Positions 5,188 through 45,410 of a stretch of 64,000 nucleotides of DNA are shown here, in pieces. A model generated the notes under the pieces. The model was not told the origin of the DNA, did no database searches, and saw nothing but the letters and a program-made list of their open reading frames with translations. The DNA is from a phage. The stretch lies in sequence record OZ346151.1; one strand, 5' to 3'. The position numbers and the translations under genes were made by a program. Position 1 is the stretch's first letter. The number at the start of each line of letters is the position of its first letter.

Positions 5188-6231
5188 ATGACTAAACCAG
5201 TTATCCCTCTTGATATTTGGGCCAATCAGGATGTTGTGCTTGAAAATACGGGAGAGTTGAATAAGTCTCAACCAAAAAAAGAAGAGAGATTGAAAGGTTG
5301 GGATATGACACAAAGAGTGGCATGTGAAGTTGTTAACTTTGAACTTCACATGCTTTCTGCGTGGTTAAAGCATTTAACAGAAGATGTTGTCCCAGGATGG
5401 GATAATAGATTCTTAAGGGTCACTAATAATCTAGCAGACGTTCCAGACAAAGCTGCTGCACGTCAAGTTCTCAATGTATACTCGCCTGAAGAAATGGACG
5501 ATCTGTATGTTGACAAGTCTGGAGACATAATGACTCAGACTCAAACTTTAGGCCTTCAAAGAATCGAGTTTGCATCTGCGTCAACAGACAATGCGGCAAT
5601 ATATACCACCATAACTCCAGACAAGACGACGATGGACTTCTGGATTATGGACAACATCGGTGGTGCTGACGGCACAGACCTTGATGATCCTTCTCACCAA
5701 ATAGACGGGTTCCGTTGGAGATTTCAACCTTCTGGTGGGCAGCCTGTGTTTTCGGCTATGAAGCTCAATGCTATAACTGCCAACCGTGCAAGACTGGCTA
5801 TCCAAGGAAATCTTGAATGCAACGATGCAAAAAGTTCCTCTGCAAATGCCAATGCGGTCACGATACCAAGAGCCACTGTTAACGGACAACAATCCTGCGG
5901 AAGCGCTCAAATAGGTGGAAGAGTTGATTGTAACGATGAAACCGTTAGAGGCCAATATGCAACCGTTGGTGGAAGAAACGTGGTCCGCAGGGTAAACGGT
6001 AACAGCGCAGACGGTAGTGGTAACCTTACTGTCCCTATGCCCAGTAGAGGGGTTGACGATGTAAGGATAGCGAACCGTTTCAAAACCACCTACAGAGAGT
6101 CAAGGGTCTACCCTGGACATGTGATGTGCTCTGGTAACTACGCTTATAAACACCCTTATCAAGGTGATTACTGGACAGGTGCTATCCAAAAACTTGTAAA
6201 CGGTCAATGGATCACTATATCTTATGCTTAA
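5188..6231 (+). CDS. tail fibre protein, paralogue 2 (about 347 aa)
   Basis: ATG after GGAGAA RBS; shares PLDIWANQD N-terminus, LGLQRIEF, FRWRFQP and QKLVNGQWITISYA C-terminus with 3135..4175. Confidence 0.55.
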   Translation: MTKPVIPLDIWANQDVVLENTGELNKSQPKKEERLKGWDMTQRVACEVVNFELHMLSAWLKHLTEDVVPGWDNRFLRVTNNLADVPDKAAARQVLNVYSPEEMDDLYVDKSGDIMTQTQTLGLQRIEFASASTDNAAIYTTITPDKTTMDFWIMDNIGGADGTDLDDPSHQIDGFRWRFQPSGGQPVFSAMKLNAITANRARLAIQGNLECNDAKSSSANANAVTIPRATVNGQQSCGSAQIGGRVDCNDETVRGQYATVGGRNVVRRVNGNSADGSGNLTVPMPSRGVDDVRIANRFKTTYRESRVYPGHVMCSGNYAYKHPYQGDYWTGAIQKLVNGQWITISYA

Positions 6232-6242
6232 AAAGAGGGTAA

Positions 6243-6509
6243 ATGAAACTAACTCAGTTTTTATGGGGACTGGTTGCGGAATCTGATGACCCTACGAAAG
6301 TATCCCAATCTAAGCTATGGTCGAACATAGGCATGGTGGTGATGACTGGGGTGTTTATTCATATGGGGTATAATGATACGCTTCCTGAATGGTATGCGTG
6401 GATATATGCACCTTCAGTAGCCTGCCCCCAGCTTATTAGCAAATTCATCTCGCTCCGGTGGGGTTGCCAGCACCCTGACCACGTTAAAAACGAAGAGCAA
6501 AAAGCTTAA
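6243..6509 (+). CDS. hypothetical small protein downstream of fibre paralogue 2 (88 aa)
   Basis: AGAGGG RBS and ATG; position analogous to 4190..4774. Confidence 0.4.
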   Translation: MKLTQFLWGLVAESDDPTKVSQSKLWSNIGMVVMTGVFIHMGYNDTLPEWYAWIYAPSVACPQLISKFISLRWGCQHPDHVKNEEQKA

Positions 6510-39968: not shown

Positions 39969-40334
39969 ATGGAACAAATGAACGATCAAGCGTCGGTTGC
40001 GATGAACGAGCAAGAACAACCTCAAGAATTTTTCTTAGGGTTAAGTAAAGATCAAGTGTCTCTTCTGCTAGTGCTTTCTTCTTTCATGGGAAGACTTCAG
40101 GAGCTCACACAACAGCCAGAGGCTGAACAATTATTCCAAGCTTTGCGTGAAGAAGAAAAATATCGTCGTTTGGACTATGCCTTAGGTTGGGTAGCTCAAC
40201 AACGAGATATGCTGATGGCCCTCTCTGGGACCACAAGTTTTGCAATGGGGCTGTTGGCTCAAGTTCAGGACAAATTAATTCAAGCAGGGTTTGCACACAC
40301 GGCAAACACTAACGAAGAACAAGGAGACAAATAA
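39969..40334 (+). CDS. hypothetical protein (121 aa)
   Basis: GGAGA RBS; stop overlaps next start. Confidence 0.45.
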   Translation: MEQMNDQASVAMNEQEQPQEFFLGLSKDQVSLLLVLSSFMGRLQELTQQPEAEQLFQALREEEKYRRLDYALGWVAQQRDMLMALSGTTSFAMGLLAQVQDKLIQAGFAHTANTNEEQGDK

Positions 40335-41560
40335 TGAGCGTTATTCAACAATTCGCTAACCCGATGAATCCGCGTGAAACTGTTTTACTGGCTCACGGCA
40401 TGATTAAACGTGTCAGCATCAAGCCTATCAAAGGTGCTGATCCTACAACAGGTATTAAAACCACTGTGTGGCAAGGTAAGAAAATTGAATCCAGCCACAC
40501 CATCTCTTTACTGATTTCTGAACTGGATTCCTCTGATAACCTGCTTCAAGGTGGTGAAGAAGTTTGGATCAGCATGGGTGATAAGCTGCTTAAACCTGGT
40601 CATCAAGACTCTGTCTCTGTTAAAATTGATGACAAGTGGGAAACCGTAACGCCGGGATGGATCGTAAATATTCCTTTGAAGGCAAACGAGCATAACGGTA
40701 AGACCTATTACAAAGGCTCACTGGCTAAGATGGTCAAGCTGGGTGCAGGAGAGGCTCCAGCAGCGACTCAGCAGCAAAAACAGCAACAAGGTGCACAATC
40801 ACAAGGCCAGAAGCAGAAACCTCAGCAGAATGCCAATCAGGACGTTTTACGCATCTATGGTGATGTGACTCAGATTGTTGGCAACGTGGTTACTGTTAAT
40901 GACCACAAGATTGGCGAAGGTGCTATGGTTGTAACTGATGAGCAGCTTAAAGACCTGGTGGTAGGTGGTCGTGTTGCAGCCATTGTTGACAAAGACACCG
41001 GAAACATTATCAGTGGTTTCAAGGCCTATCCTCCTAAGGCAGAGAACGGCACTCAAGGCTCTGGTGGCAAGCGTAAATCCTCTTACGACCCTATCGGTGT
41101 GGAAACGGGGCATAGCATCAATGCGTTGCAGATCATCCTGGATCGCGGGTTTAAGGTAGACGACCCACTGGGCGTGGCTAAAACACTGCACGTAGTCACC
41201 ATTGAGCTTAAGAAAGAGTATGCTCAAGCCACCAACCGAGCTGAAGATGAAGTAGGTGCCAGTGTCGGTAATGCGGTGTTGAACGCTTGTCGCCGTATTG
41301 ACAAGAAAACGAAAGTTGATGATTTTGCAGTGGCAATTACTGCAGAAGCAAAAGATGTCTTGACTAATCTAGCTGAGCCGTTGTACGATTGGATCAAGAA
41401 CGGTGCTGAGTCCACTGACCATCAAGAACCTCAGGCTGCCAAACAGGAAGCAGCTCCACAGCAAAACACTGTAGACGCTCCTCCTGTAAATGATGCGGAA
41501 GATGACCCAATGGATCAGAATCCAGCACAGTACGTCTTTGATGATGACATCCCATTTTAA
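40334..41560 (+). CDS. SSB-like single-stranded DNA-binding protein with Gln-rich linker and acidic C-terminal tail (408 aa)
   Basis: C-terminus DDDIPF is identical to the bacterial SSB protein-interaction tail; Q-rich low-complexity linker; sits in the replication module. Confidence 0.55.
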   Translation: MSVIQQFANPMNPRETVLLAHGMIKRVSIKPIKGADPTTGIKTTVWQGKKIESSHTISLLISELDSSDNLLQGGEEVWISMGDKLLKPGHQDSVSVKIDDKWETVTPGWIVNIPLKANEHNGKTYYKGSLAKMVKLGAGEAPAATQQQKQQQGAQSQGQKQKPQQNANQDVLRIYGDVTQIVGNVVTVNDHKIGEGAMVVTDEQLKDLVVGGRVAAIVDKDTGNIISGFKAYPPKAENGTQGSGGKRKSSYDPIGVETGHSINALQIILDRGFKVDDPLGVAKTLHVVTIELKKEYAQATNRAEDEVGASVGNAVLNACRRIDKKTKVDDFAVAITAEAKDVLTNLAEPLYDWIKNGAESTDHQEPQAAKQEAAPQQNTVDAPPVNDAEDDPMDQNPAQYVFDDDIPF

Positions 41561-41574
41561 CATTTAGTTAACAT

Positions 41575-41603
41575 AGCCCTGCCAGAAAGGGTGGGGTATT
41601 TTT
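41575..41603 (+). terminator. rho-independent terminator (copy 2 of repeated terminator)
   Basis: GCCCTGCCAGAAAGGGTGGGG hairpin followed by TATTTTTG. Confidence 0.6.
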
Positions 41604-41622
41604 GTATAAGGAGATCTAAAAA

Positions 41623-42039
41623 ATGACATTAGAAGATATCATTGTTAAACCTGAGAACTATGACCAATACAACCTGTCAACTCAATCTGTAGACCTTGGA
41701 TGCGCCACGGTCAGTGCGTGGCTGGTTAACGGAAAAGAGCTGGATAAATGCTTAGAAGCTCACATGTCTATTAACAAGTTTCTGGATGAAAATACTCACT
41801 GGCTTGAGGGTGCAGGAGTATATGCTTCATGGTTGGAAAGTATGGGATTCGACTACCAATCTGAAGAAGGGTGGTGGAGCTATTTAGCTATCTGCCCAGA
41901 GACGCTGCAATGCTTCATGAAATATTCTGAAGATTTGGAGTACCGGGCGGTGGTTGATAGTGCTATTGCCCGTTATAGCCGTAAACCTTTTTCCCACGAC
42001 ATTAAAACTGTGGAAGAGTTTGTTGAAGTTTTCTGTTGA
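41623..42039 (+). CDS. hypothetical protein (138 aa)
   Basis: AAGGAGA RBS and ATG. Confidence 0.45.
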   Translation: MTLEDIIVKPENYDQYNLSTQSVDLGCATVSAWLVNGKELDKCLEAHMSINKFLDENTHWLEGAGVYASWLESMGFDYQSEEGWWSYLAICPETLQCFMKYSEDLEYRAVVDSAIARYSRKPFSHDIKTVEEFVEVFC

Positions 42040-42135
42040 CACAGGTGGAAAGGTGTGCAATTATAACTTCATAGAACGGGAGGACGTGATGAACGAAGAA
42101 AACTGGGATGTATAACTAACAGGAGGCCACTGCCC

Positions 42136-42333
42136 ATGATTTATCGAATCCGTGTAAGAGAAGATGCACCAGGCTGTTACTTTGACTGGCGTGGGTGGTG
42201 GTTTCTCCACCCAATGGATGGACTCACAGATAGAATGCTGGATGCTGCCCTTTATACAGATACCGACATAGAATATAATCTCTATCTGAAGGACGGTATA
42301 GATAACGGCCTGTTTGAAGCAATTCCTGTGTAA
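42136..42333 (+). CDS. hypothetical protein (65 aa)
   Basis: AGGAGG RBS and ATG. Confidence 0.4.
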   Translation: MIYRIRVREDAPGCYFDWRGWWFLHPMDGLTDRMLDAALYTDTDIEYNLYLKDGIDNGLFEAIPV

Positions 42334-42401
42334 GAGACTGTAATAGCTATGTTTTATGATCTTCCTGTAGCACCACCACCTGTTGAACCCGGAGAACTAA
42401 G

Positions 42402-42827
42402 ATGATCTATGAAATGCCAAAACTGATTCGTGACGATGCCCAAAACGCCCACACCTTTATCATGGGCAAGCGCATGGATATTATTTGTCATAAAGATTTC
42501 TGGGAAGGTAGTTACTTCACAGAATATTTTGGTAAACTGGATAATGGTCTGCTGATCCAGTTCTACACCGATGCGGAAAACAATATCTGCTGGGAGTTCG
42601 AAACTGAAGATATCCATAAACTTTTCACCTTCCTAGGTATTAAGGTTGAGGCCAAGTTTGAAGAAGGCGAGTGCGACGATTGTGGATTCTACGAGGTAAC
42701 AGATTTCTATCTCCCAAGTGGTGAGAACCTTTACTATGAAAGCCACTTCGGCAACTCAAATATGCCACAAGGTTGGGATGAGTTTTTTGAAATTGCGGAA
42801 GAGGAGCTGACATACCGTGATTATTGA
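42402..42827 (+). CDS. hypothetical protein (141 aa)
   Basis: GGAGAA RBS; stop overlaps macrodomain gene start. Confidence 0.45.
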   Translation: MIYEMPKLIRDDAQNAHTFIMGKRMDIICHKDFWEGSYFTEYFGKLDNGLLIQFYTDAENNICWEFETEDIHKLFTFLGIKVEAKFEEGECDDCGFYEVTDFYLPSGENLYYESHFGNSNMPQGWDEFFEIAEEELTYRDY

Positions 42828-43275
42828 TACTGTAGCGGGAGATTTAATCTCCCTTTTTAAGAGCGGTGCTGGTCACCTGATCCACGGTTGTAACTGCTTT
42901 CATACAATGGGTGCAGGCATAGCGAAAGATATTGCCCGTGAGTTCCCTCAAGCACTGGCAGCCGACAAAGAGACTGCCTATGGTAATCTGGACAAGCTGG
43001 GTATGTTTTCTTGTTGGGAGCATTTTGCCAAGAACAGGGTCGTATATGGAATCAACCTGTATACCCAGTTCTACCCAGGGCCCAATGCTGAATACTTCTC
43101 AATAATGAAAGGTTTTGAGCGAGTCAACGAGGTATTCAAAGGTGTGTCATTGCCGTTCTACATTCCTAAAATTGGATGCGGTATTGGCGGTCTAAAGTGG
43201 GAACATGTAGAAGATGTAATTAATCTTGCAACCACAGATATTGATGTGGTTGTAGTAGAGTACAAAAAGTGTTGA
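42817..43275 (+). CDS. macrodomain protein (TARG1/DarG-like ADP-ribose-binding or hydrolase fold)
   Basis: IHGCNCFHTMGAGIAKDIAREFP matches the HC(N/I)S...MGAGIA signature of TARG1/DarG-type macrodomains; 152 aa; GTG start overlapping upstream stop. Confidence 0.6.
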   Translation: MIIDTVAGDLISLFKSGAGHLIHGCNCFHTMGAGIAKDIAREFPQALAADKETAYGNLDKLGMFSCWEHFAKNRVVYGINLYTQFYPGPNAEYFSIMKGFERVNEVFKGVSLPFYIPKIGCGIGGLKWEHVEDVINLATTDIDVVVVEYKKC

Positions 43276-43526
43276 CGACCATCTTCTGAGGTGATATAGT
43301 TTCCACAACAACTAAGAGAGGAGAGCACTGTGGAGACTAAAATCTTAATTCTTGCTGTGGTAGATACAACCGAAGGAGCTATATTCGAATCTGCAGGGAG
43401 GTATTTCTACCTACCATACGGAAAAAGAACTTCCGAGCCAAGTAAAGATTCAATCCTCAAGGTGTTCCCGTGTGCTTTCTGGCTGGAGATTTTGGTATAA
43501 GATTGCAGAGGATTTGGGAGAGAATT

Positions 43527-43721
43527 ATGAGAAACAAGAAAGAGCTTTACTCTGGTGAGTGGATCAACGATCAACAGGTGGGAGAGGTAACCTGCTTCCG
43601 ATGTTTTACCAGGTACAATCTTAAAACTGCACCAAAAAGTGTTCCAAAGACTGACGGTTATTACATAAAAGAACCTCATTGCCCAAAATGTAAATGCCGA
43701 TTATACTGGAGTAACCTGTAA
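43527..43721 (+). CDS. small zinc-ribbon protein (about 64 aa)
   Basis: ATG after GGGAGAG; CFRC ... CPKCKC pattern. Confidence 0.4.
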   Translation: MRNKKELYSGEWINDQQVGEVTCFRCFTRYNLKTAPKSVPKTDGYYIKEPHCPKCKCRLYWSNL

Positions 43722-43784
43722 AAGATTGACATCTGAAAACTGCAGTGTATAATATATGCATAAACTAACAGAGAGTGATGTATT

Positions 43785-43976
43785 ATGGTAATTTTTAACC
43801 GGGATGGTATCATAGTTAGACAGCACCCGTTCCTTGAATACTATCAAATTGAGCAATGGTGCTACGGGGATTGCAGTCACTCCTATGGGCAAAGTTGGGG
43901 ATATCGTACAGTTTTTGAATCCACAGACCTTGACAAAGTAAAACAGAAAGTTTTAGAACTTCTTAACAACAAGTGA
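43785..43976 (+). CDS. hypothetical protein (63 aa)
   Basis: ATG start; small ORF. Confidence 0.35.
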   Translation: MVIFNRDGIIVRQHPFLEYYQIEQWCYGDCSHSYGQSWGYRTVFESTDLDKVKQKVLELLNNK

Positions 43977-43986
43977 GTATCGTGCC

Positions 43987-44319
43987 ATGGTAACATTGGA
44001 AAGACGTAAAGCTATTGCCGCCACACTGGCAGACATCTTTTGGGATTGTAATTTAAAATCTACCCGAAATTGTGGTGCATCTGTAGATGTATTATTCCCA
44101 CGGCCTACTATTGTTGCAATGGGCAACCTGCTCGATGTGGTATATGGAGCATGGGACAAGGAAGGTGGATTCTATATCTGGCAACCTGACTACGGGACTT
44201 GGAAAGAGGTTAGTGGTTCTTCGGACTTCACTCCTGCAGTGGCTAAAATGGATGGCTGGAAAATCTATGTCGGTAACGACATGGAACTGAAAGGCGAAAT
44301 TGTTTACTGGTTACCTTAA
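43987..44319 (+). CDS. hypothetical protein (110 aa)
   Basis: ATG start. Confidence 0.45.
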   Translation: MVTLERRKAIAATLADIFWDCNLKSTRNCGASVDVLFPRPTIVAMGNLLDVVYGAWDKEGGFYIWQPDYGTWKEVSGSSDFTPAVAKMDGWKIYVGNDMELKGEIVYWLP

Positions 44320-44340
44320 GAAAGTCCAGGAGATAAAGTT

Positions 44341-44586
44341 ATGAACAAAGGGTGGACATTTGTAGACGGCGTTAAAAACATGCCTCTAGGAAAGTATATT
44401 GTAGCCATGGCAGATGAGAATGGCAAGGTTGATTTCGGAGTTTGCGAGGTTGTTCTTGCAGGATCTGGTGACTATGCTCACAAAACTGGGATAATTAACG
44501 GTCATTTCTACTTTGATTACAACCCTGTTGTGGCGTATATGGCTATGCCAGAGTTCGAGCTCCCAAAGGAAGGTGCAGATGTTTAA
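44341..44586 (+). CDS. hypothetical protein (81 aa)
   Basis: AGGAGA RBS and ATG. Confidence 0.4.
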   Translation: MNKGWTFVDGVKNMPLGKYIVAMADENGKVDFGVCEVVLAGSGDYAHKTGIINGHFYFDYNPVVAYMAMPEFELPKEGADV

Positions 44587-44776
44587 GCTTAAATCTGCAT
44601 GGAACATCGCTGTGGGGGACGAGATCCGTATCCCAGGTGGAAAGACCATTATGAAAATATCTCGTATCGAGTACGAAGGTGATCGTGTATTTCATATCTT
44701 TGCAGAAGATGGTCGAGAGATTTATATACAGGTAGGATCTCACATCTATATTCGTAAGAAAGGGGAGGACAAATGA
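44582..44776 (+). CDS. hypothetical protein (about 64 aa)
   Basis: ATG after AAGGAAGG; overlaps upstream stop. Confidence 0.4.
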   Translation, partial: FKLKSAWNIAVGDEIRIPGGKTIMKISRIEYEGDRVFHIFAEDGREIYIQVGSHIYIRKKGEDK

Positions 44777-45102
44777 CAGAGATCATCATTTCAACTGCAG
44801 GGTATGTATTCCTGACAATCATTGCACTGGCTATTTTGGTGACAGTGTATGGGTTTGTTATCCTTCCTATCCTTGAGACATTTAGTTTGTGTCGGTGTTG
44901 GAGAAAAGCTTACGGTCCACAACCATGGAAGGACTGGCCCCACCTGGTGCGCTTAGCGTTCTCTTATGCTTACGATCACTCCAGTAGTGCATGCATAACC
45001 GGATACCACGCCCACAACTGGAGCTGGGAAGGGTTGAGGAAATGGAATGTTACAAAGACCATACCTCTGCGCATGTACAAACCTAAAAACAAAGACAACT
45101 GA
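44773..45102 (+). CDS. membrane protein (109 aa)
   Basis: GGGGAGG RBS; N-terminal hydrophobic helix IISTAGYVFLTIIALAILVTVYGFVILPIL. Confidence 0.45.
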   Translation: MTEIIISTAGYVFLTIIALAILVTVYGFVILPILETFSLCRCWRKAYGPQPWKDWPHLVRLAFSYAYDHSSSACITGYHAHNWSWEGLRKWNVTKTIPLRMYKPKNKDN

Positions 45103-45410
45103 TACTTGAAAATTCCTGGCATATCAAGTATAAGGGGGATTTCTAAAATGGATTTCCTCCTTTTGATATTTCACCGGGCTGGATATTTTAAAATTCTTAG
45201 AAAATCAGAAAATGGATCGAAAACTAAAATGGATTTTTCAGAGTAGGCGCGACAAGCTGAATAACTCATCCTATCGTTTGCACCATATTCCAGGCCACCA
45301 TTATAGATTTCCCACACATGCTAACCTCTCCCTACTAGAACTTCCTCCACTTACCCTTGACCTTCTATGGTAACAATCTAACCGCTATCTTGAAGTTGCG
45401 GTGCAGCTTT

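What the first reader, a model, noticed from the sequence alone, without database searches (positions are those of the whole stretch)
42817..43275. TARG1/DarG-like macrodomain protein, candidate counter to ADP-ribosylation-based immunity
The HGCNC...MGAGIAKDIA signature is the ADP-ribose-binding loop of TARG1/DarG-type macrodomains, which remove ADP-ribose from protein or DNA. Host systems such as DarT-like toxins ADP-ribosylate DNA during phage attack; a phage macrodomain next to the replication genes is a plausible anti-defence factor. It is translationally coupled to the upstream 141-aa ORF.
Basis: partly seen in the sequence, partly recalled or inferred. Interest (0 to 1): 0.6.

Follow-up and report, generated by a model that had tools for sequence, protein, structure and literature searches.

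The report
Phage macrodomain, likely anti-DarT2 (AdfM-type)

Summary

The protein is 39% identical over its full length to T4 Tk.4. A 2025 preprint renamed Tk.4 AdfM because deleting it makes T4 sensitive to DarTG2. A Krischvirus gene in the tk.4 slot is 69% identical to the window protein.

It is replaced by Gln84, found in 254 of 258 family members with no lysine in any of them. SCO6735 has the same substitution; there the glutamine is essential, and the enzyme removes ADP-ribose from thymidine in ssDNA.

The protein is not a DarG. It has no C-terminal DarT-binding domain, no adjacent darT, and scores 47 bits against a 250-bit cutoff.

Some relatives are fused to NADAR, the guanine-ADPr eraser. 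T5, which is DarTG2-sensitive, has no such gene.

Most likely function: an orphan "antitoxin-like" eraser of DarT2 marks on replicating phage DNA. This has not been tested for this phage.

Verdict: a new member of a known kind, of modest interest.

The parts
42817..43275 (+). Macrodomain gene (152 aa, GTG start, TGA stop). It is the orthologue of T4 tk.4/adfM.
42801..42806 (+). Shine-Dalgarno-like GAGGAG, 10 nt upstream of the GTG start.
   Evidence: Read directly from the sequence. Phage Murica annotates the same RBS.
42402..42827 (+). Upstream 141-aa ORF of unknown function (phrog_8157). Its last 11 nt overlap the start of the macrodomain gene.
   Evidence: Homologues occur only in Vequintavirus and Krischvirus, and I found no homologue beside the macrodomain gene in Krischvirus UPWr_E1 (only one candidate ORF was tested). 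AF2 pLDDT is 67 and there is no fold match.
42883..42897 (+). Codons for H23-G-C-N26-C. N26 corresponds to SCO6735 Asn27 and PhiKZ AdfM Asn23, an active-site Asn that is required in both of those enzymes.
   Evidence: N26 is present in 257 of 258 family members and H23 in 250 of 258. Literature.
42907..42924 (+). Codons for M31-G-A-G-I-A36, the first Gly-rich diphosphate-binding loop.
   Evidence: G34 is present in 255 of 258 members. The loop is identical to MGAGIA of TARG1.
43054..43068 (+). Codons for N80-L-Y-T-Q84. Gln84 occupies the position of the catalytic Lys84 of TARG1 and Lys80 of DarG.
   Evidence: Q84 is present in 254 of 258 members and none has K. PhiKZ Lys and TARG1 Lys84 fall in the same HMM column. 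The profile alignment pairs NlYtQ with NMIGQ of BT1257 and with LITK of TARG1. The Gln85 numbering of SCO6735 was recovered from the alignment.
43165..43191 (+). Codons for P117-K-I-G-C-G-I-G-G125, the second Gly-rich phosphate-binding loop. G124 stands where TARG1 has Asp125.
   Evidence: P117, G120 and G122 are present in 254-255 of 258 members. Alignments.
42837..42853 (+). 7-bp hairpin followed by TTTTT, 20 nt inside the ORF. Phage Murica annotates it as a terminator. Its function is uncertain.
   Evidence: MFE is -10.1 kcal/mol with z -1.65, which is not significant. There is one compensatory A-U to C-G change in the Krischvirus orthologue.
43272..43300 (+). Sigma-70-like promoter match TTGACG-17-TATAGT with an extended -10 TG, overlapping the stop codon of the macrodomain gene. 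It probably starts the next transcription unit.
   Evidence: Consensus scan, 10 of 12 matches. This is a pattern match only.
42917..43330 (.). Divergence island. Here two Vequintavirus alleles of the macrodomain gene differ (71-78% nt identity), while the flanks are mostly 87-100% identical to 366V (L008); against A6-1 the upstream ORF also drops to 72-82%.
   Evidence: Sliding identity against phages 366V and A6-1. dS is about 1.05 and dN/dS 0.11. Identity bands across records.

Best explanation
The gene encodes a stand-alone macrodomain ADP-ribosyl glycohydrolase of the Tk.4/AdfM type, which acts as an orphan antitoxin-like enzyme.

Proposed mechanism. When the phage infects a cell carrying a DarTG2-type system, the DarT2 toxin ADP-ribosylates thymidines in single-stranded phage DNA at replication forks and so blocks replication. 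The phage macrodomain is made early, together with the replication genes. It binds the ADP-ribose through its two Gly-rich loops (MGAGIA and PKIGCGIGG) and hydrolyses the thymine-N3 to ribose-C1'' bond. This releases free ADP-ribose and restores the DNA.

Catalysis most likely follows the lysine-independent route described for SCO6735. In that route Gln84, held in place by Asn26, positions the distal ribose and a water-mediated step breaks the bond. This differs from the Lys-based chemistry of TARG1 and DarG.

What is shown here: the gene is real, its fold and class, the motif conservation, and homology to T4 Tk.4.
What is shown in the literature, for homologues only: Tk.4 is needed on DarTG2 hosts; SCO6735 and PhiKZ AdfM cleave T-ADPr DNA.
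What is inferred: this protein has the same activity and role; expression timing; the Gln mechanism.

For: 2. Orthology to an experimentally implicated gene. The protein is 39% identical and 65% similar to T4 Tk.4 over the full length, E 1e-43. The gene in the syntenic regB-vs-[tk.4]-tk slot of a Krischvirus is 69% identical to the window protein. The T4 tk.4 knockout is sensitised to DarTG2, and tk.4 was the single significant hit in the transposon screen.

3. Active site. Q84, N26, H23 and both Gly loops are near-invariant in 258 family members. SCO6735 has Gln85 and Asn27 at the same positions. Q85A and N27S abolish its activity, it cleaves DarT-made T-ADPr on ssDNA faster than DarG or TARG1, and it rescues E. 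coli from DarT.

4. Domain fusions. Tk.4-type macrodomains with the same NAYTQ motif are fused to NADAR, the guanine-ADPr DNA hydrolase of DarG1/AdfN. This was seen in 3 of the 10 long members tested.

5. Consistent phyletic pattern. T5, which is DarTG2-sensitive, has no such gene: best hit 9.8 bits against 165 and 205 bits for the controls.

6. Selection and context. The gene is under purifying selection, dN/dS 0.11. It lies on the same strand as, and downstream of, the primase, polymerase and SSB genes.
Against: - No experiment exists for any Vequintavirus macrodomain. The HIDEN-SEQ study screened the Vequintavirus Bas54 on clinical isolates and did not report this gene.
- For T4 Tk.4 only genetics is available; its enzymatic activity was inferred, not measured.
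- At 39% identity, a shift in substrate is possible.
- The SCO6735 'mobile loop' with Lys89, credited with its high DNA activity, is missing here: there is a 6-residue gap against BT1257. SCO6735 Lys34 corresponds to Ala33 in this allele.
- The protein is mildly acidic (pI 5.9), which is not what one expects for a DNA-binding surface.
- The NADAR and DUF4326 fusions were read by Iyer et al. as acting on soluble ADPr derivatives.
- Macrodomains of this class are promiscuous. Known substrates include protein Glu/Asp-ADPr, U-ADPr RNA, OAADPr and Appr1p.
Confidence: 0.65

Rival explanations
1. The protein processes small-molecule ADP-ribose derivatives. It would act on soluble compounds and not on DNA. 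Candidates are ADP-ribose-1''-phosphate (Poa1p-like phosphatase, the source of the 'phosphatase' annotation), O-acetyl-ADP-ribose from a phage or host sirtuin, or ADPr-derived immune signals.
For: - PHROG 335, the RefSeq T4 record and the rV5 record name the family 'phosphatase / A1pp motif'.
- Poa1p His23 and Ser30, the residues mutated in its PDB entries, align with H23 and T30 here.
- Iyer et al. favour soluble ADPr substrates for phage Macro, NADAR and DUF4326 proteins, and note a sirtuin plus RNA-repair neighbourhood in V5-type phages.
Against: - In T4 the orthologue shows a specific genetic phenotype on DarTG2, whose toxin modifies DNA.
- The 'phosphatase' name is inherited from homology and was never tested.
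- No sirtuin, Tpt1 or RNA-ligase gene was found in the window ORFs scanned.
- The two activities are not mutually exclusive.
Confidence: 0.15
2. The protein erases a different macromolecular ADP-ribosylation. This could be uracil-ADPr on RNA, or protein (Glu/Asp) ADP-ribosylation. The modifying enzyme would be another host toxin or a phage ADP-ribosyltransferase, with DarT2 marks only a side activity.
For: - SCO6735, TARG1 and DarG also reverse U-ADPr on ssRNA.
- SCO6735 and TARG1 de-modify protein substrates.
- About 18,000 clusters match the family profile at E <= 1e-3 (1241 at E <= 1e-30), including a chromosomal member with no DarT nearby, which suggests uses beyond DarTG.
Against: - No RNA-uracil ADP-ribosylating defence system is known in E. 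coli.
- No ART gene was seen near the macrodomain gene.
- The T4 genetics point to DarTG2.
Confidence: 0.12
3. The protein acts without catalysis. It would bind DarT2 directly and inhibit it, or sequester ADP-ribosylated DNA or ADPr ligands, without hydrolysing anything.
For: Catalytically dead SCO6735, DarG and TARG1 all inhibit DarT in vitro by 'interaction-inhibition', and SCO6735 does so most strongly. The canonical catalytic Lys is absent here.
Against: - The residues essential for hydrolysis in SCO6735 (Gln and Asn) are near-invariant across 258 members. That fits selection for catalysis.
- The protein lacks the DarG C-terminal domain that mediates DarT binding.
Confidence: 0.05

Closest known systems
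T4 Tk.4 = AdfM (anti-DarT factor Macrodomain), bioRxiv 10.1101/2025.11.20.689424
   Same: A full-length single-domain protein of the same size (155 against 152 aa), 39% identical and 65% similar. It has the same invariant motifs HGCNCFHTMG-G-A, NLYTQ-PGPN and P-IG-GIG. It is an early-region phage gene that overlaps the stop codon of the gene before it. A Krischvirus gene in the tk.4 slot is 69% identical to the window protein.
   Different: The genomic neighbourhood differs: tk.4 lies between vs and tk in T-even phages, whereas this gene lies downstream of the SSB-like genes and a Vequintavirus-specific ORF. The anti-DarTG2 phenotype has been shown only for T4. Biochemistry has been shown for neither protein.
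Streptomyces coelicolor SCO6735 and Bacteroides BT1257 (Gln-type ALC1-like macrodomains; PDB 5E3B, 2FG1/2AFC)
   Different: Sequence identity is only about 22%. The 5-6-residue extension of the mobile loop that carries SCO6735 Lys89 is absent, and Lys34 is Ala33 in this allele. The phage family has its own invariant residues, D50, N80 and Y82. It is phage-borne, not chromosomal.
DarG antitoxin of DarTG2 (PDB 5M3I, 5M31, 7OMU)
   Different: The catalytic Lys80 is replaced by Gln. There is no C-terminal DarT-binding domain (152 aa, matching only positions 4-144 of the 338-position model, 47 bits against a cutoff of 250). There is no adjacent darT.
PhiKZ gp104 = AdfM (chimallivirus DarG2-like macrodomain; PMC13309987)
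   Same: A phage-encoded orphan macrodomain of similar size. It was shown to remove DarT2 ADP-ribose from DNA and to be needed against DarTG2. It therefore plays the same proposed role.
   Different: A separate lineage. It is 22% identical (E 8e-5), it is Lys-type (FPTKD), and it scores 133-138 bits on the DarG models against 47-49 bits here. It is imported into the phage nucleus, which Vequintaviruses do not have.
Human TARG1/OARD1 and yeast Poa1p
   Different: The TARG1 Lys84/Asp125 dyad is absent, replaced by Gln84 and Gly124. The Poa1p substrate Appr1p has no evident source in this phage context.

Membership tests
Macrodomain superfamily (Pfam PF01661) | Three-layer alpha/beta/alpha macro fold | tested here: met
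Macrodomain superfamily (Pfam PF01661) | Score above the Pfam gathering threshold | tested here: met
   25.9 bits against a cutoff of 22, but only residues 22-53 align. The model represents this subclass poorly.
Macrodomain superfamily (Pfam PF01661) | Two Gly-rich ADP-ribose diphosphate-binding loops | tested here: met
   MGAGIA (31-36) and PKIGCGIGG (117-125). G34, G120 and G122 are invariant or nearly so in 258 relatives.
ALC1-like / TARG1-like macrodomain class | Nearest structural neighbours are TARG1, DarG, SCO6735/BT1257 and Poa1p, and not MacroD, PARG or viral X-domains | tested here: met
TARG1 (OARD1) | Catalytic Lys84-Asp125 dyad | tested here: not met
   Gln84 and Gly124 occupy these positions.
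DarG antitoxin (NCBIfam NF048014, PADLOC DarG) | Catalytic Lys80 in the macrodomain | tested here: not met
   Gln84 aligns to the Lys of Mtb DarG (FPTKK) and of PhiKZ gp104.
DarG antitoxin (NCBIfam NF048014, PADLOC DarG) | C-terminal DarT-binding domain and a full-length model score | tested here: not met
   The protein is 152 aa and covers model positions 4-144 of 338. It scores 47.3 bits against a cutoff of 250. PADLOC covers 9-143 of 329.
DarG antitoxin (NCBIfam NF048014, PADLOC DarG) | Encoded next to a darT toxin gene | tested here: not met
   The neighbouring ORFs are phage-specific PHROGs with no Pfam hit. Relatives annotate only hypothetical proteins there.
Gln-type ALC1-like macrodomains (SCO6735/BT1257 subclass) | Gln in place of the catalytic Lys, supported by the conserved Asn of the H-x-C-N motif | tested here: met
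   Q84 in 254 of 258 members and N26 in 257 of 258. NlYtQ aligns with NMIGQ of BT1257. SCO6735 Gln85 and Asn27 were mapped from the alignment and from the paper.
Gln-type ALC1-like macrodomains (SCO6735/BT1257 subclass) | Extended mobile loop after the Gln, carrying basic residues (SCO6735 Lys89) | tested here: not met
   The profile alignment needs a 6-residue insertion in BT1257 relative to the phage family. Here the loop reads QFYPGPNAEY.
Gln-type ALC1-like macrodomains (SCO6735/BT1257 subclass) | Hydrolysis of thymidine-linked ADP-ribose on ssDNA | not testable with these tools
   This needs an enzyme assay on a DarT2-modified oligonucleotide.
AdfM, T4 Tk.4 type | Full-length sequence homology to T4 Tk.4 with the family motifs | tested here: met
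   39% identical, E 1e-43, residues 1-150 aligned. Same PHROG 335. All invariant positions are shared.
AdfM, T4 Tk.4 type | Orthology supported by synteny | tested here: inconclusive
   A Krischvirus gene in the regB-vs-tk.4-tk slot is 69% identical to the window protein. In Vequintavirus, however, the gene sits in a different neighbourhood.
AdfM, T4 Tk.4 type | Required for phage growth on DarTG2-expressing hosts | not testable with these tools
   Shown only for T4. The absence of the gene from DarTG2-sensitive T5 is consistent with the requirement.
AdfM, PhiKZ gp104 type (DarG2-like) | Close DarG-like macrodomain with the catalytic Lys | tested here: not met
   22% identity, E 8e-5. gp104 scores 133-138 bits on the DarG models against 47-49 bits here. 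It is Lys-type, this protein is Gln-type.
Poa1p-type ADP-ribose-1''-phosphate phosphatase | Conserved His23 and Ser30 of the Poa1p active site, and Appr1p phosphatase activity | tested here: inconclusive
   H23 is conserved and Ser30 aligns with Thr30. The residue of Poa1p at the Gln84 position could not be read from the outputs. The activity is not testable here.

The most novel reading that the evidence does not exclude
The phage Tk.4-type macrodomains, including this one, form a third lineage of DNA-base ADP-ribose erasers that is mechanistically distinct. They have an invariant Gln in place of the Lys, they lack the DNA-gripping loop of SCO6735, and they carry their own invariant Asp50, Asn80 and Tyr82. 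On this reading, the sharply divergent allele cassette inside otherwise near-identical Vequintavirus genomes, together with the fusions to NADAR and DUF4326, would reflect an ongoing arms race with diverse DarT-like toxins. That race could involve substrates beyond thymidine-ADPr.
Probability: 0.3. Interest if true: 0.5.

Novelty: new member of a known kind. Interest (0 to 1): 0.3.

Why it matters
Homologues of this gene occur in about 5% of deposited phage genomes (2742 of 50,697 records). The family profile matches 1241 protein clusters at E <= 1e-30 (about 18,000 at E <= 1e-3, which reaches into the wider macrodomain class).

If the whole Tk.4-type clade erases DarT2 marks, DNA ADP-ribosylation is a widespread pressure on large lytic phages. 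Vequintaviruses, which are candidates for phage therapy, would then carry built-in resistance to DarTG2.

The practical value here is correcting annotation. The family is still widely labelled 'phosphatase' or 'hypothetical'. It also uses a Gln-based active site, not the DarG/TARG1 Lys-based one, which matters for mutant design (Q84A or N26A, not a Lys mutant) and for inhibitor work.

The biology itself is already published for homologues, so the discovery value is modest.

Tried and rejected
1. Functional link to the upstream 141-aa ORF. It has no Pfam or NCBIfam hit and only 4 homologue clusters. Homologues occur only in Vequintavirus and Krischvirus. The one candidate ORF I tested near the macrodomain gene in Krischvirus UPWr_E1 is not a homologue. 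AF2 gave pLDDT 67 with the other four models at 42-48, and Foldseek found nothing at E<=1e-3. No link was established.

2. DarG membership. Rejected: below the model cutoff, no C-terminal domain, no Lys, no darT.

3. Companion ADPr genes in the window. tblastn with NADAR and DUF4326 segments found nothing. A Pfam scan of ten ORFs at 14-25 kb found no sirtuin or RNA-repair genes.

4. RNA elements. There are no Rfam families or tRNAs in the window.

5. The intragenic 'terminator' hairpin. Its folding energy is not significant against shuffles (z -1.65). It was kept only as a side note.

6. The gene-poor region around 56-59 kb. The repeat scan showed only short two-copy matches, and my coordinate transfer from JLBYU08 did not hold there. 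Dropped.

7. Evidence on Vequintavirus and DarTG2 in the literature and in the HIDEN-SEQ supplements. None was found. The LeRoux 2022 paper is not held in the library.

8. The Poa1p residue at the Gln84 position. It could not be read, because the alignments printed covered only the ends of Poa1p.
Full report
**1. The observation**

An ORF runs from 42817 to 43275 on the + strand. It starts with GTG, ends with TGA and encodes 152 aa. It contains HGCNC at residues 23-27 and MGAGIAKDIA at residues 31-40.

The GTG start lies 11 nt before the end of the upstream 141-aa ORF (42402-42827). A GAGGAG sequence sits 10 nt upstream of the start. The curated Murica record annotates the same start and RBS. 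Alignments to homologues begin at residue 1, which supports the start codon.

The gene is real:
- It matches PHROG 335 at 1.4e-59.
- tblastn finds homologues in 2742 of 50,697 phage records.
- Comparison with a divergent allele gives dN/dS of 0.11.

**2. Where the window comes from**

The 4.9 kb around the gene is 99.5% identical to Escherichia phage JLBYU08 (Vequintavirus murica) and 96-98% identical to about 110 other rV5-like phages.

In JLBYU08 the same strand carries, upstream, a cytosine methyltransferase, primase, DNA polymerase and two putative SSB genes. Three small ORFs follow, then the gene annotated 'putative macro domain-containing protein'.

Consensus scans suggest a promoter near 42036, and another at 43272-43300 that overlaps the stop codon. 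These are pattern matches only.

**3. What the protein is**

Sequence searches:
- Pfam Macro is just above threshold at 25.9 bits against a cutoff of 22, and only the N-terminal part aligns.
- phmmer against PDB sequences finds M. tuberculosis DarG, Poa1p, SCO6735, BT1257 and TARG1.
- A 75-sequence profile raises these to E 1e-15 to 1e-11.

Structure:
- AlphaFold2 gives a confident model, pLDDT 94.8 and pTM 0.90.

**4. The catalytic-lysine check**

The position of TARG1 Lys84 and DarG Lys80 is occupied by Gln84, within the motif N80-L-Y-T-Q84. TARG1 Asp125 corresponds to Gly124.

I aligned 258 family members to the family HMM:

| Position | Members with this residue (of 258) |
|---|---|
| Gln84 | 254 (none has Lys) |
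| Asn26 | 257 |
| Asp50 | 256 |
| Asn80 | 256 |
| Tyr82 | 255 |

The Lys residues of PhiKZ gp104 and TARG1 fall in the Gln84 column. T4 Tk.4 has the same NLYTQ motif.

This arrangement matches SCO6735 and BT1257 (NMIGQ). For SCO6735, Hlousek-Kasun et al. (PMC9411070) showed the following:
- Gln85 sits at the Lys position.
- Q85A, Q85E and N27S abolish activity.
- The enzyme removes DarT-made ADP-ribose from thymidine in ssDNA more efficiently than DarG or TARG1.
- It rescues E. coli from DarT.

The missing lysine therefore does not argue against hydrolase activity. It does move the protein from 'TARG1/DarG-type' to the Gln-type subclass.

There are also differences from SCO6735. The extended mobile loop with Lys89 is absent. 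Lys34 corresponds to Ala33 in this allele.

**5. Link to anti-defence**

Three sets of published findings bear on the proposed role:
- The T-even homologue is Tk.4. It is 39% identical and 65% similar over the full length, E 1e-43. A 2025 preprint (bioRxiv 10.1101/2025.11.20.689424) found tk.4 as the single significant transposon-screen hit on DarTG2 hosts. It confirmed that a clean knockout sensitises T4, and named the gene adfM. Enzymatic activity was inferred there, not measured.
- Independently, the chimallivirus macrodomain PhiKZ gp104 was also named AdfM. It was shown in vitro to remove DarT2 ADP-ribose from DNA and to be needed against DarTG2 (PMC13309987). That protein is a different, Lys-type, DarG-like lineage: 22% identity to the window protein, and 133-138 bits on the DarG models against 47-49 bits here.
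- Phage NADAR proteins (AdfN) play the analogous role against DarTG1 (PMC11825919).

- A Krischvirus gene in the syntenic regB-vs-[tk.4]-tk slot is 69% identical to the window protein. This bridges the Vequintavirus and T-even genes.
- Among ten long family members tested, three are Macro+NADAR fusions, one of which also carries DUF4326, and a fourth is a DUF4326+Macro fusion. All keep the NAYTQ motif. These fusions join a presumed thymine-ADPr eraser to the known guanine-ADPr eraser.
- T5, which is sensitive to DarTG2, has no Tk.4-type macrodomain anywhere in its genome. Its best hit is 9.8 bits, against 165 and 205 bits for the T4 and window controls.

**6. What it is not**

It is not a DarG antitoxin. 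It covers only the macrodomain part of the DarG models and scores 47 bits against a cutoff of 250. It has no DarT-binding domain and no neighbouring darT.

It is not a TARG1, because the dyad is missing.

The widespread label 'phosphatase' (PHROG, RefSeq T4, rV5) is inherited from Poa1p/A1pp homology and has never been tested.

**7. Caveats and rivals**

Caveats on the main explanation:
- No Vequintavirus macrodomain has been tested. The HIDEN-SEQ study included the Vequintavirus Bas54 but did not report this gene.
- The protein is mildly acidic, pI 5.9, and it lacks the basic loop of SCO6735.
- Iyer et al. (PMC9503650) read phage Macro/NADAR/DUF4326 combinations as acting on soluble ADPr derivatives.
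- Enzymes of this class also act on U-ADPr RNA and on protein ADPr.
- A chromosomal member in Pelagimonas is an orphan among housekeeping genes.

My estimates for each explanation:

| Explanation | Estimate |
|---|---|
| DarT2-mark eraser as the main role | about 0.65 |
| Small-molecule ADPr processing | about 0.15 |
| Other macromolecular ADPr substrates | about 0.12 |
| Non-catalytic inhibition | about 0.05 |

**8. Side observations**

- The gene body is a divergence island. Against phages 366V and A6-1, nucleotide identity falls to 71-78% between 42917 and 43330. The flanks against 366V are mostly 87-100% identical; against A6-1 the upstream 141-aa ORF (42417-42816) is also diverged, at 72-82%. 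dS is about 1.05.
- About 30 records carry the window's allele and about 75 carry the other one. The other allele reads MGKGIA, as in DarG and SCO6735.
- The first 45 nt or so of the ORF are almost identical even in the Krischvirus orthologue. They contain a hairpin that Murica annotates as a terminator. It shows one compensatory change.
- The upstream 141-aa ORF remains of unknown function.

**9. Verdict**

It needs one refinement: this is a Gln-type, SCO6735-like orphan macrodomain orthologous to T4 Tk.4/AdfM, and not a Lys-type TARG1 or DarG.

The homologue's role against DarTG2 is already published, and relatives are already annotated as macro-domain proteins. This is therefore a new member of a known kind. 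Interest is about 0.3.

Noticed in passing
window 42917-43330: The body of the macrodomain gene, plus the short spacer after it, is a divergence island inside otherwise near-identical Vequintavirus genomes. Nucleotide identity to phages 366V and A6-1 is 71-78% here, against mostly 87-100% in the flanks of 366V (in A6-1 the upstream ORF is also diverged). dS is about 1.05 and dN/dS 0.11. Two alleles circulate: about 30 records carry the window type and about 75 carry the other type, which has MGKGIA in place of MGAGIA. This suggests cassette-like exchange of an anti-defence gene.
   Followed up: partly
window 42837-42853 (+): A hairpin GGGAGAT-TTA-ATCTCCC followed by TTTTTAAG lies 20 nt inside the macrodomain ORF. 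The Murica record annotates it as a terminator. The Krischvirus orthologue keeps the stem through a compensatory A-U to C-G change but has a weaker T-tract. The folding energy is not significant against shuffles (z -1.65). The first 45 nt or so of the ORF are unusually conserved at the nucleotide level between the two phage groups.
   Followed up: partly
window 43272-43300 (+): A near-consensus sigma-70 promoter match, TTGACG-17-TATAGT with an extended -10 TG, overlaps the stop codon of the macrodomain gene. The macrodomain gene may therefore be the last gene of its transcription unit.
   Followed up: no
window 42402-42827 (+): The 141-aa ORF that overlaps the macrodomain start (phrog_8157) is restricted to Vequintavirus and Krischvirus phages. 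It has a conserved C-x-x-C (ECDDCG) and many aromatic and acidic residues, and no recognisable domain or fold (AF2 pLDDT 67, no Foldseek hit). One metagenomic protein (P0017, 121 aa) matches both this ORF and the macrodomain, perhaps through a frameshift or fusion.
   Followed up: partly
metagenomic proteins P0168, P0226, P0249, P0184 (relatives, not in the window): Tk.4-type macrodomains occur fused to NADAR (Macro-NADAR-DUF4326, 472 aa; two further Macro+NADAR fusions) and to DUF4326 alone. All keep the Gln motif. They may be dual erasers of thymine- and guanine-linked DNA ADP-ribosylation, or processors of soluble ADPr derivatives.
   Followed up: partly
window 40300-45200, compared with public records: Sixteen records named 'Campylobacter phage' (for example C2, C5, A112b; host C. 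jejuni) are 96-98% identical to this E. coli Vequintavirus region. These are probably mislabelled or contaminating coliphages.
   Followed up: no
window 40300-45200, in relatives H3, H6, H9, H22, H23, H25: Several close relatives carry an extra insertion of about 0.55-0.6 kb in this 4.9-kb stretch, annotated as a homing endonuclease or endonuclease VII. The neighbourhood is therefore a site of mobile-endonuclease gain and loss. The window lacks the insertion.
   Followed up: no
locus L010 (Pelagimonas phthalicica chromosome), 6001-6459: A 152-aa Tk.4-type macrodomain (40% identical to the window protein) sits as an orphan among housekeeping genes on a 1.6-Mb bacterial contig, with no DarT nearby. 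This resembles the stand-alone 'guardian' role proposed for SCO6735.
   Followed up: no
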